Assembly (NCBI RefSeq): GCF_030013205.1
Contig: NZ_CP122648.1
Strand: one strand, 5' to 3'
Length of the DNA stretch: 64,000 bases
Origin: Escherichia coli
Lineage (GTDB): Bacteria; Pseudomonadota; Gammaproteobacteria; Enterobacterales; Enterobacteriaceae
Each line of letters starts with the position of its first letter. The stretch's first letter is position 1. Shown piece by piece: positions 8,601 through 11,600 of this stretch. The position numbers are program-made.

Positions 8601-11600
8601 ATGAGGAAGATTGCCGGGTGCTGACGGTAAAAAGCAATCGTAAAATCAGCGGCAAGCCGGAAAGGTTCCGGTGAGGCGCAATGTTGCGGGGGCTTAATCC
8701 CTGGTGGCATTGGTTGCTGGAGAGAGAAAACCCCCGCACGTTGCAGGTATGCACCTGACAACATCACGGGGGCTAATCTTGAACCTAGACCACTCAAGAA
8801 TAGCCGCGAAACGTTGTCATTACAACACAGGCGGCTATATGACGCTCGCAGAACTGGGCATGGCCTTCTGGCATGATTTAGCGGCTCCGGTCATTGCTGG
8901 CATTCTTGCCAGCATGATCGTGAACTGGCTGAATAAGCGGAAGTAACGTGTCAGACGGGCGTCAGGCTGCCGTAATGGCAAGTTGCGTCCGGATCAGGCC
9001 GCAGGGATAAAACTCTGCGGCCTTTTTCGTAAGAAAAATGCAACGGTTGCAAGCGGATAATATTCTGCGGAATGCGCAGCACAGAGTGAAGACGTGACGG
9101 ATTCCGGAACAGAAAAACAGTCGTAGAATCAGCGGCAAGCCGGAAAGGTTCCGGTGAGGCGCAATGTTGCGGGGGCTTTATCCCTGGTGGCATTGGTTGC
9201 TGGAGAGAGAAAACCCCCGCACGTTGCAGGTATGCACCTGACAACACCACGGGGGCCATTCTTGCATCCAAACAATACAAGAATAGCCGCGAAACGTTGT
9301 CATTACAACAGAGGCGGCTATATGACGCTCGCAGAGCTGGGCATGGCCTTCTGGCATGATTTAGCGGCTCCGGTCATTGCTGGCATTCTTGCCAGCATGA
9401 TCGTGAACTGGCTGAATAAGCGGAAGTAACGTGTCAGACGGGCGTCAGGCTGCCGTAATGGCAATTTGCGCCCGGACCAGGCCGCAGGGATAAAACTCTG
9501 CGGCCTTTTTCGTAAGAAAAATGCAACGGTTGCAAGCGGATAATATTCTGCGGAATGCGCAGCACAGAGTGAAGAAGTGATGGATTCCGGAACAGAAAAA
9601 CAGTCGTAGAATCAGCGGCAAGCCGGAAAGGTTCCGGTGAGGCGCAATGTTGCGGGGGCTTAATCCCTGGTGGCATTGGTTGCTGGAGAGAGAAAACCCC
9701 CGCACGTTGCAGGTATGCACCTGACAACACCACGGGGGCCATTCTTGCATCTAGACCATTCAAGAATAGCCGCGAAATGTTGTCATTACAACACAGGCGG
9801 CTATATGACGCTCGCAGAACTGGGCATGGCCTTCTGGCATGATTTAGCGGCTCCGGTCATTGCTGGCATTCTTGCCAGTATGATCATGAACTGGCTGAAC
9901 AAGCGGAAGTAACGTGTCATGCGGGCGTCAGGCTGCCGTAATGGCAATTTGCGCCCGGACCAGGCCGCAGGGGTGAAACTCTGCGGCCTTTTTCGTTCTT
10001 ATTGCGGGTAAGGCACCCAGTCGCCGCCGTTCAGGCGAACGTACGGTTTATCCTGGTATTGAATAACTACTGCATTTGAGTTCTCGGAGACCGGTGCTGT
10101 TTGTGGTAACCCACTGGTGAGTTTTTTCCAGTCAACATTGTCTTCGGAGAAAATCTTGCCATCAAGAACGCGAACCACCAGATCGGAGATAGCCAGGAAG
10201 CTGCTCGGTTGGTCGATGACAATCGGTGCCCCCTGATGTGGTGCCTTCATGCCGAAGAATTTCACCCCAACGGGGACGTCTGTGATAGACGGGCTAGGGA
10301 TATCACGTAGGCCAGATACCTGCATTCTGTCGCCCTTCAGCGCGCCACCGTGTTCCGGCACCACTACCACCATCACTTTACGACCCGACTTCTCCAGTTC
10401 AGTAAAGAAGGCGTCCAGCTCATCAAAGAATTTCTGTGCTCGCGCTTTGTAATCCGCTGTTTTGCTGACGCCCGGATAATGGTTGCCGTCATGCAGTGGA
10501 AGCGTGTTGTAGAACGTGGCACTACGGCTGTTTTTATCTTTTTCGGTAACGTCCAGCCAGCGGTTAAGCACGGCGGTATCGTCATAAACCGGCGAACCAT
10601 CAAAGCCCAGCAAAATAACCGGCAGATTTGTTTGATCCATCAATTCGGTCTGCATGCCGCCATTTTCGCGAACTTCTTTCAAAAAACCGCCGAACTGGCC
10701 GTTATGTCCCATCATCAGGTGCTGGGTAAAGCCCAGTTTCGACAGGTTATCAAACAGATAGCAGTCATTATTTGCCGGTTGATACAGATTAGTATGCGAA
10801 GTCTGCCCGCAGCTGGCGCGCAGTAAACGGATCGCCGCCGGAAGGTGACATTGCCGTCGAGTACTGGAGTACGGTGGCGAAAATTCCGGCTCGCCGTGGC
10901 GAAGCGATTAATCAGCTAAAACGCATTAATGCGGATACGCCGGGCAATACGGGCCTACAAAACAATCTGGCGCTATTGCTGTTTAGTAGCGATCGCCGTG
11001 ACGAAGGTTTTGCCGTCCTGGAACAGATGGCGAAATCAAACGCCGGGCGCGAAGGGGCCTCTAAAATCTGGTACGGGCAGATTAAAGACATGCCCGTCAG
11101 CGATGCCAGTGTGTCGGCGCTGAAAAAATATCTCTCGATCTTTAGTGATGGCGATAGCGTAGCTGCGGCGCAATCGCAACTGGCAGAACAGCAAAAACAG
11201 CTGGCCGACCCTGCTTTCCGCGCTCGTGCGCAAGGTTTAGCGGCGGTGGACTCTGGTATGGCGGGTAAAGCCATTCCCGAACTACAACAGGCAGTGCGGG
11301 CGAACCCGAAAGACAGTGAGGCTCTGGGGGCGCTGGGCCAGGCGTATTCTCAGAAAGGCGATCGCGCCAATGCGGTGGCGAATCTGGAAAAAGCCCTCGC
11401 CCTGGATCCGCACAGCAGCAACAACGACAAATGGAACAGTCTCCTGAAAGTAAACCGCTACTGGCTGGCGATCCAGCAGGGCGATGCTGCGCTGAAAGCC
11501 AATAATCCTGACCGGGCAGAACGCCTGTTCCAGCAGGCGCGTAATGTCGATAACACCGACAGCTATGCAGTGCTGGGGCTGGGCGATGTGGCGATGGCGC

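What the first reader, a model, noticed from the sequence alone, without database searches (positions are those of the whole stretch)
8645..9995. Triplicated Ldr/Rdl type I toxin-antitoxin array at the single-copy ldrD locus
Three head-to-tail 483-bp units sit between yhjV and the bcsG remnant. Each unit has its own sigma70-like promoter and a 35-aa Ldr toxin ORF (starts at 8839, 9322, 9805). Each also has a convergent ~70-nt Rdl antisense gene with its own promoter and terminator, and an mRNA terminator. K-12 carries a single unit (ldrD/rdlD) here; its triplicated array (ldrABC) lies at a different locus. Copy 3 carries a V28M substitution in the transmembrane toxin. The first unit has diverged promoter spacing (TAAAAT -10 but a poor -35), so the copies may not be expressed equally. 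The large ORFs the track calls across this array are repeat artefacts; only the 35-codon ORFs are real.
Basis: partly seen in the sequence, partly recalled or inferred. Interest (0 to 1): 0.6.

Follow-up and report, generated by a model that had tools for sequence, protein, structure and literature searches.

The report
Common three-copy ldrD/rdlD toxin-antitoxin array
The window carries three tandem copies of the well-known Ldr/Rdl small-toxin/antisense-RNA module at the spot where E. coli K-12 has one, but this three-copy form is a common, already published and routinely annotated E. coli allele, so it is ordinary.

Summary
A 483-bp unit is repeated 2.8 times at 8630-9996 (95% identity). Each unit holds a 35-aa Ldr ORF (Pfam Ldr_toxin, 89-93 bits) and a 66-nt Rdl antisense RNA on the opposite strand (Rfam rdlD, 82-90 bits against a cut-off of 50). 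Each also has an intrinsic terminator. K-12 has one unit here.

It is not novel. RefSeq annotates three Ldr genes at yhjV-bcsG in many complete genomes. In an evenly spaced sample of 60 of 5,438 complete E. coli records, 21 had three copies, 23 one, 5 two and 10 four. A 2017 paper on BL21(DE3) states that the strain has three ldrD/rdlD pairs between bcsG and yhjV, and that array is colinear with this one (97.1%). The V28M toxin allele occurs on at least 1,000 contigs.

Copy number changes by unequal crossing-over between units. A near-isogenic boar strain, and K-12 relative to BL21, each carry one unit that is an exact unit-1/unit-3 chimera, 966 bp shorter. K-12's single copy therefore looks derived.

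The 'diverged first promoter' is the K-12 ldrD promoter context with one SNP. Expression was not testable here. Interest is low.

The parts
8630..9996 (.). Tandem array of three LDR-D-type units (U1 8630-9112, U2 9113-9595, U3 9596-9996; period 483 bp)
   Evidence: TRF and repeat finder; pairwise identity 95.0-96.3%
8641..8646 (+). Putative -10 of ldr-1 promoter (TAAAAT; TAGAAT in K-12, U2 and U3)
   Evidence: Read from the sequence and aligned to K-12 LDR-D. Inferred: the consensus scan did not report it
8725..8790 (-). rdl-1 antisense antitoxin RNA (66 nt)
   Evidence: Rfam RF01813 90.4 bits, GA 50; coordinates map onto the K-12 rdlD annotation; hairpin fold -31.7 kcal/mol, z -4.9
8797..8825 (-). 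Putative rdl-1 promoter: -10 TATTCT (8802-8797), 17-nt spacer, -35 TTGTAA (8825-8820). Both hexamers are identical in all three units
   Evidence: Read from the sequence relative to the Rdl 5' end at 8790. Inferred: 8 of 12 matches, below the scan threshold
8839..8946 (+). ldr-1 toxin ORF, 35 aa (RefSeq WP_001295224.1)
   Evidence: ORF list; Pfam PF13940 93.2 bits; RefSeq CDS in an identical genome
8996..9028 (+). ldr-1 mRNA intrinsic terminator (11-bp stem, 8 GC, T-run)
   Evidence: Terminator scan
9029..9112 (.). Inter-unit spacer 1, absent from single-copy alleles; spacer 2 is 9512-9595
   Evidence: Alignment to K-12; no match to K-12 LDR-ABC
9124..9129 (+). Putative -10 of ldr-2 promoter (TAGAAT)
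   Evidence: Sequence and alignment; inferred
9208..9273 (-). rdl-2 antisense RNA
   Evidence: Rfam RF01813 81.7 bits; fold
9322..9429 (+). ldr-2 toxin ORF, 35 aa, same protein as ldr-1
9479..9511 (+). ldr-2 mRNA terminator
9607..9612 (+). Putative -10 of ldr-3 promoter (TAGAAT)
   Evidence: Sequence and alignment; inferred
9691..9756 (-). rdl-3 antisense RNA
   Evidence: Rfam RF01813 81.8 bits; fold
9805..9912 (+). ldr-3 toxin ORF, 35 aa, V28M allele (RefSeq WP_001521561.1)
   Evidence: Pfam 89.1 bits; allele seen on at least 1000 contigs
9962..9994 (+). ldr-3 mRNA terminator
7092..8363 (-). yhjV, left flank of the array
   Evidence: RefSeq annotation of an identical genome
9999..10841 (-). 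bcsG remnant (C-terminal part only), right flank of the array
   Evidence: RefSeq pseudogene annotation; ORF list

Best explanation
This is the three-unit allele of the chromosomal LDR-D locus of E. coli: three complete Ldr/Rdl type I toxin-antitoxin modules in head-to-tail array between yhjV and bcsG. From what was established for K-12 ldrD/rdlD, each unit should make an mRNA of about 375 nt that runs from a promoter at the left edge of the unit to the hairpin terminator after the ORF. That mRNA encodes a 35-aa membrane toxin. Each unit should also make a 66-nt Rdl RNA from the opposite strand inside the 5' leader. Rdl pairs with the leader and keeps the toxin from being translated, possibly by blocking a leader ORF (ldrX) to which ldr translation is coupled. 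The array is an old, polymorphic feature of Escherichia. Unequal homologous recombination between the 95%-identical units expands and contracts it in steps of 483 bp, giving 1 to 4 copies in different strains. K-12's single copy is best read as a collapsed derivative. What is shown here: the anatomy, family membership, synteny, population frequency and the recombinant structure of single-copy alleles. What is inferred: transcription of each unit, toxicity, and repression by Rdl.
For: Repeat structure. Ldr ORFs match Pfam PF13940 at 93.2 and 89.1 bits against a cut-off of 27. Three full-length Rfam rdlD matches exceed the gathering score, on the strand opposite the ldr leader, and all fold into the same hairpin with a free 5' tail. 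There is a terminator after each ORF and at each Rdl 3' end. Synteny with K-12 ldrD/rdlD. The units are 95-96% identical to K-12 LDR-D but only 79-82% to LDR-A/B/C. RefSeq annotates 'Ldr family protein (x3)' here in many genomes, 11 of them (H1-H11) at 99.8-100% identity. Systematic sample of 60 records: 21 with three copies, 23 with one, 5 with two, 10 with four, 1 other. PMC5435950 states that BL21(DE3) has three ldrD/rdlD pairs between bcsG and yhjV. The BL21 intergenic region has the same length (1635 bp) and is 97.1% identical without gaps. Recombinational collapse: strain W13-16 shares the same bcs deletion and has nearly identical flanks (1 difference in 2264 bp and 0 in 2502 bp). It has one unit that equals U1 up to at most 8763 and then U3. 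The K-12 intergenic region equals the BL21 array minus exactly 966 bp, with zero mismatches when read as a U1/U3 chimera. Other Escherichia species carry 1-3 copies at the same site, while Salmonella and Citrobacter carry one. Mechanism in K-12: PMC4147584, PMC8167048, PMC7373196.
Against: No expression data exist for this strain. The strict sigma-70 scan found no promoter, so independent transcription of each unit is inferred from conserved hexamers and from K-12 and BL21 data. I could not see Figure 3B of the BL21 paper, so I do not know whether all three units were individually detected there. The ldrX coupling model is a literature proposal that the reviews themselves call unconfirmed. The direction of copy-number change in K-12 (3 to 1) rests on parsimony, not on a dated phylogeny.
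Confidence: 0.95

Rival explanations
1. The triplication is an assembly artefact: a single repeat unit was over-expanded by the assembler.
For: Tandem repeats of about 0.5 kb can be mis-assembled from short reads. Nothing specific in the data points this way.
Against: The three units differ from each other at 15-21 positions, so they are not copies of one read pile. Ten other complete genomes carry the same array at 100% identity, and about a third of complete genomes carry three units here. The BL21(DE3) reference carries the same array.
Confidence: 0.01
2. The array is a recent, lineage-specific duplication of a K-12-like single ldrD unit.
For: The outgroups Salmonella arizonae and diarizonae, Citrobacter and E. 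whittamii have a single unit upstream of yhjV, so a single copy was ancestral at some depth.
Against: The units are 4-5% diverged from each other. E. ruysiae, Shigella and other Escherichia lineages have 2-3 units at the same site. The 84-bp spacer between units has no counterpart in single-copy alleles or in LDR-ABC, so duplicating a K-12-like unit cannot regenerate it. Single-copy K-12 and W13-16 are exact U1/U3 chimeras of three-unit neighbours. That pattern fits collapse, not expansion.
Confidence: 0.1
3. The array is a transposed or converted copy of the ldrABC array from the kdsA-chaA locus.
For: Both are three-unit Ldr/Rdl arrays in E. coli.
Against: Identity to K-12 LDR-A/B/C is only 79-82%, against 95-96% to LDR-D. 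The period is 483 bp against about 535 bp. The spacer has no match in the ABC region, and the toxins are LdrD-type, not LdrA/B/C-type.
Confidence: 0.01
4. One or two of the units are decaying, silent copies, and only one module is functional.
For: Unit 1 carries a -10 SNP and unit 3 a V28M change. Frameshifted or substituted Ldr copies occur in arrays of some other genomes (L033, L037).
Against: All three units here keep an intact 35-codon ORF with a full-length Pfam match, a full-length Rfam Rdl with a stable fold, identical putative rdl promoter hexamers, and intact terminators. The V28M allele is widespread. That would be unexpected for a dead copy, but it is not proof of function.
Confidence: 0.1

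Closest known systems
ldrD/rdlD (LDR-D) of E. coli K-12 MG1655
   Same: Same chromosomal site (yhjV-bcsG), same unit anatomy, 95-96% DNA identity, and a toxin that differs by one residue (L3 here, F3 in K-12). The Rdl coordinates map one-to-one.
   Different: One unit in K-12 and three here. K-12 lacks the inter-unit spacer, and its unit is an exact U1/U3 chimera of a BL21-type array.
Three-unit ldrD/rdlD array of E. coli BL21(DE3), published in PMC5435950
   Same: Same locus, same 483-bp spacing, identical intergenic length (1635 bp) and 97.1% identity. Units 1 and 2 encode the same protein, WP_001295224.1.
   Different: 47 SNPs. The bcsG-proximal toxin is the K-12 LdrD allele (F3) in BL21 and the V28M allele here. 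BL21 has TAGAAT, not TAAAAT, at the unit-1 -10. BL21 has an intact bcs operon.
ldrABC/rdlABC array of K-12 (kdsA-chaA locus)
   Same: A tandem three-unit Ldr/Rdl type I toxin-antitoxin array with the same gene order within each unit.
   Different: Different locus, period of about 535 bp, only 79-82% identity, no spacer homology, and LdrA/B/C-type toxins.
hok/sok/mok and ibs/sib type I toxin-antitoxin loci
   Same: A small hydrophobic toxin repressed by a cis-encoded antisense RNA. The proposed leader-ORF coupling (ldrX) resembles mok. Ibs/Sib loci are also tandemly duplicated, and there only cognate pairs repress (PMC4147584, PMC2943612 abstract).
   Different: Unrelated toxin and RNA families. 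The Rfam sok model matches the ldr leader only below threshold (26-30 bits against GA 59). Cognate-only discrimination has not been shown for Rdl.

Membership tests
Ldr/Rdl (LDR) type I toxin-antitoxin | 35-aa hydrophobic Ldr toxin | tested here: met
   Pfam PF13940 Ldr_toxin, full length 1-35, at 93.2 and 89.1 bits against a cut-off of 27. RefSeq names the proteins 'Ldr family protein'. There was no NCBIfam HMM hit; I do not know which evidence PGAP used for the name.
Ldr/Rdl (LDR) type I toxin-antitoxin | Cis-encoded Rdl RNA of about 66 nt on the opposite strand, overlapping the ldr 5' leader and not the ORF | tested here: met
   Three full-length RF01813 matches (82-90 bits, GA 50) lie 49 nt upstream of each ldr start codon on the minus strand. 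The hairpin folds have z-scores of -3.2 to -4.9.
Ldr/Rdl (LDR) type I toxin-antitoxin | Long direct repeat unit of about 0.45-0.5 kb bounded by a promoter and an intrinsic terminator | tested here: met
   The period is 483 bp, and a terminator-like hairpin follows each ORF. The promoters are only inferred, because the consensus scan was negative.
Ldr/Rdl (LDR) type I toxin-antitoxin | LDR-D locus identity: between yhjV and bcsG, LdrD-type sequence | tested here: met
   Synteny with K-12. Identity is 95-96% to LDR-D against 79-82% to LDR-A/B/C.
Ldr/Rdl (LDR) type I toxin-antitoxin | Stable ldr mRNA of about 370 nt and unstable Rdl RNA actually transcribed from each unit | not testable with these tools
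   Only indirect evidence: K-12 data cited in reviews and the BL21(DE3) transcriptome-based annotation of RdlD RNAs.
Ldr/Rdl (LDR) type I toxin-antitoxin | Toxin kills or arrests cells when overexpressed, and Rdl counteracts it | not testable with these tools
   Shown for K-12 LdrD/RdlD according to PMC4147584. Not tested for the L3 or V28M alleles.

The most novel reading that the evidence does not exclude
The units may not be redundant. All sequence differences between the three Rdl RNAs fall in the 5' 27 nt, which includes the single-stranded tail. Across 30 Escherichia units this stretch is one of the two most variable parts of the unit. If that tail is the recognition element, each Rdl could preferentially silence its own ldr mRNA, as Sib RNAs do for their cognate ibs mRNAs. 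Recombinational gain and loss of units (1-4 copies) would then change the number of independently controlled toxins, giving a heritable and reversible dosage switch for stress or persistence phenotypes.
Probability: 0.1. Interest if true: 0.4.

Novelty: already known. Interest (0 to 1): 0.1.

Why it matters
It matters little as a discovery. The module is a textbook type I toxin-antitoxin system, and the three-copy allele is common, annotated and published. Three points are still useful. First, K-12 is not representative at this locus: about 60% of sampled complete genomes carry two to four units. Second, K-12's single ldrD is an exact recombinant of the outer units of a three-unit array. Third, copy number can change between near-isogenic strains. 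Anyone studying Ldr dosage, knocking out 'ldrD' in non-K-12 strains, or mapping short reads or RNA-seq at this locus should allow for these points.

Tried and rejected
Assembly artefact: rejected, because the units differ by 15-21 SNPs and many independent complete genomes share the array.

Origin from ldrABC: rejected on identity, period and spacer.

Strict sigma-70 consensus scan: it found nothing in 8400-10100, so I could not confirm the promoters computationally. I read the hexamers by eye and leaned on homology to K-12.

NCBIfam scan of the Ldr peptides: no hit. Pfam was decisive instead.

Pfam scan of the long ORFs and of the 25-aa leader ORF: no hits.

Kawano et al. 2002 (PMID 12123448), the primary LDR paper with mapped transcript ends, is not in the library. 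The K-12 mechanism is therefore cited through reviews.

I could not identify which leader ORF is the proposed ldrX. Two ATG-started ORFs are conserved in all three leaders: a 25-aa ORF at 8681-8758 and an in-frame extension from 8749.

A bioRxiv mobilome paper that mentions ldr/rdl concerns the ldrABC signal and says nothing about copy number at this locus.

Clustering of inter-unit differences is significant for the U1-U2 pair (no permutation in 20,000 reached the observed clustering) but not for U1-U3 or U2-U3 (p = 0.12 and 0.15). The 'specificity tail' idea therefore stays a weak lead.

Full report
**Observation.** Tandem Repeats Finder reports a single array at 8630-9996 with a 483-bp period, 2.8 copies, 95% matches and no indels. 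The repeat finder places in-register copies at 8630, 9113 and 9596. I call the units U1 (8630-9112), U2 (9113-9595) and U3 (9596-9996). They differ at 15-21 positions, giving 95.0-96.3% identity.

Each unit contains a 35-codon ORF, at 8839-8946, 9322-9429 and 9805-9912. U1 and U2 encode MTLAELGMAFWHDLAAPVIAGILASMIVNWLNKRK, and U3 carries V28M. Both sequences match Pfam Ldr_toxin over its full length, at 93.2 and 89.1 bits against a cut-off of 27.

On the opposite strand, 49 nt upstream of each start codon, lies a full-length match to Rfam rdlD (RF01813). The matches are at 8725-8790, 9208-9273 and 9691-9756, at 82-90 bits against a gathering score of 50. All three RNAs fold into the same long hairpin with a free 5' tail. 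A strong hairpin plus T-run follows each ORF, and each Rdl ends in its own terminator-like site: 6 sites against 1.6 expected.

The strict sigma-70 scan found no promoter. By eye, a -10 box sits at the left edge of each unit: TAAAAT in U1 and TAGAAT in U2 and U3. A TTGTAA-17-TATTCT pair sits at the right distance from each Rdl 5' end, with both hexamers identical in all three units. These assignments are inferences.

**Context.** The best database match is a porcine ETEC chromosome, identical over 3.4 kb. There RefSeq annotates yhjV, three 'type I toxin-antitoxin system toxin Ldr family protein' CDSs, and a 5'-truncated bcsG. K-12 MG1655 has one ldrD and one rdlD between bcsG and yhjV, and ldrABC/rdlABC between kdsA and chaA. 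The window's units are LDR-D-type: 95-96% identical to K-12 LDR-D but only 79-82% to LDR-A/B/C. The LDR-A/B/C array also has a different period (about 535 bp) and no spacer homology.

**How common it is.** I took an evenly spaced sample of 60 of the 5,438 matching complete E. coli records and read copy number from the span of the match and from the annotated Ldr CDSs. The result was 23 records with one copy, 5 with two, 21 with three, 10 with four and 1 without the locus. I checked the four-copy class on two records. The three-copy sample includes O104:H4 2011C-3493 and ST131 genomes. Three copies is therefore about as frequent as the K-12 state.

The finding is also in the literature. [quoted passage not shown] I fetched that locus. 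It has three Ldr CDSs at the same 483-bp spacing, and its yhjV-bcsG intergenic region has the same length as the window's (1635 bp) and is 97.1% identical without gaps. Fozo et al. 2010 had already described ldr-rdl as tandemly duplicated loci that evolve by lineage-specific duplication and loss (PMC2887945). The V28M toxin is not a private variant: that exact sequence was seen on at least 1,000 contigs and is a multi-species RefSeq protein.

**Origin and dynamics.** Upstream of yhjV there is one unit in Salmonella enterica arizonae and diarizonae, most Citrobacter species and E. whittamii. There are two in two other Escherichia lineages, and three in E. ruysiae, Shigella flexneri and a divergent 'E. 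coli'. The site is therefore old, and the amplification is confined to Escherichia and Shigella.

Two comparisons show how copy number changes. The first is strain O139:H1 W13-16 from a wild boar. It shares the window's rare bcs deletion and its flanks (1 difference in 2264 bp on the left, 0 in 2502 bp on the right) but has a single unit. That unit is identical to U1 up to at most 8763 and identical to U3 from there on, which is a clean 966-bp deletion by crossing-over within the stretch where U1 and U3 are identical.

The second is K-12. Its intergenic region equals the BL21(DE3) array minus exactly 966 bp, and it shows no mismatch at all when read as BL21 U1 (to offset 134 at most) joined to BL21 U3. 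Single-copy alleles lack the 84-bp inter-unit spacer, which has no other source. Collapse from three units to one is therefore the parsimonious direction, and K-12's single ldrD is probably derived.

**Mechanism.** By homology, each unit is a type I toxin-antitoxin module. [quoted passage not shown] RNase III-dependent double-stranded RNA from the ldrD/rdlD overlap has been detected in vivo (PMC7373196).

All the sequence elements needed for this are intact in each of the three units. Whether all three are expressed in this strain cannot be tested here.

Unit 1's upstream region is not a degenerate promoter. It is the K-12 ldrD upstream sequence with two SNPs (8626 and 8643), and the second of these turns TAGAAT into TAAAAT. 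Both hexamers match the consensus at 5 of 6 positions. The internal units sit behind the spacer and have no better -35.

However, two short ATG-started ORFs are conserved in all three leaders: a 25-aa ORF at 8681-8758 and an in-frame extension from 8749. One of them may be the proposed ldrX.

**A weak lead.** All differences between the three Rdl RNAs fall in their 5' 27 nt: 7, 5 and 2 for U1-U2, U1-U3 and U2-U3. Clustering is significant for U1-U2 only. Across 30 Escherichia and Shigella units, the stretch around the Rdl 5' end (offsets 141-170) and the terminator loop are the two diversity peaks. This could reflect relaxed constraint or unit-specific recognition, and I cannot tell which.

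**Verdict.** The feature is an ordinary, common, annotated and published allele of a well-known system. Novelty: already known. Interest: low.

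Noticed in passing
window 9999-13882 (junction at about 10826-10841): The cellulose (bcs) locus carries a large deletion. bcsG lacks its N-terminal part and abuts a bcsC that also lacks its N-terminus, with the two pseudogene annotations overlapping by 16 bp. By comparison with the K-12 and BL21 gene order, bcsF, bcsE, bcsR, bcsQ, bcsA, bcsB and bcsZ are missing, so the strain should be cellulose-negative. 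Listed genomes without the bcsC junction match only up to window 10841. The same junction occurs in the porcine ETEC genomes and in wild-boar strain W13-16.
   Followed up: partly
L042 (NZ_CP080235.1, strain W13-16) 2265-2933 compared with window 8364-9998: A near-isogenic strain has collapsed the three-unit array to one exact U1/U3 chimeric unit that encodes the V28M toxin. This is direct evidence of recent unequal crossing-over at the locus.
   Followed up: yes
L002 (K-12) 2895-3563 compared with L041 (BL21(DE3)) 5083-6717: K-12's single LDR-D plus its flanking intergenic DNA equals the BL21(DE3) three-unit region minus exactly 966 bp, with zero mismatches when read as a U1/U3 chimera. The reference single-copy ldrD therefore looks like a collapsed array.
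   Followed up: yes
window 8688-8841, 9171-9324, 9654-9807 (+): The ldr 5' leader of every unit gives a full-length but sub-threshold match to Rfam RF01794 'sok antitoxin (CssrC)': 26-30 bits against a gathering score of 59, E = 4e-4 to 5e-3. I do not know whether this reflects the make-up of that Rfam family or a structural resemblance to hok/sok leaders.
   Followed up: no
window 60477-60560 and 60711-60794 (-): Two Rfam AgrB-family matches (98-106 bits). These are presumably the agrA/agrB antisense RNAs of the dinQ type I toxin-antitoxin locus, so the window holds a second type I system.
   Followed up: no
window 337-749 (+): A tRNA-Pro(CGG) gene is followed by two tandem matches to the Rfam RtT element (96-101 bits). 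From memory, RtT is usually described downstream of tyrT.
   Followed up: no
window 34579-34692 (-), 40472-40543 (-), 50216-50247 (+): Matches to the GadY sRNA and the ES205 sRNA, and a match just above threshold to the shuA/chuA 5' UTR thermoregulator (60.1 bits against 58), which suggests a chu haem-uptake locus in this strain.
   Followed up: no
L033 4868-5060 and L037 4395-5540: In some arrays of divergent 'E. coli' and Shigella flexneri genomes the Ldr copies carry a frameshift or unusual substitutions (W11S, H12Q, L14P), which suggests that individual units decay in those lineages.
   Followed up: no
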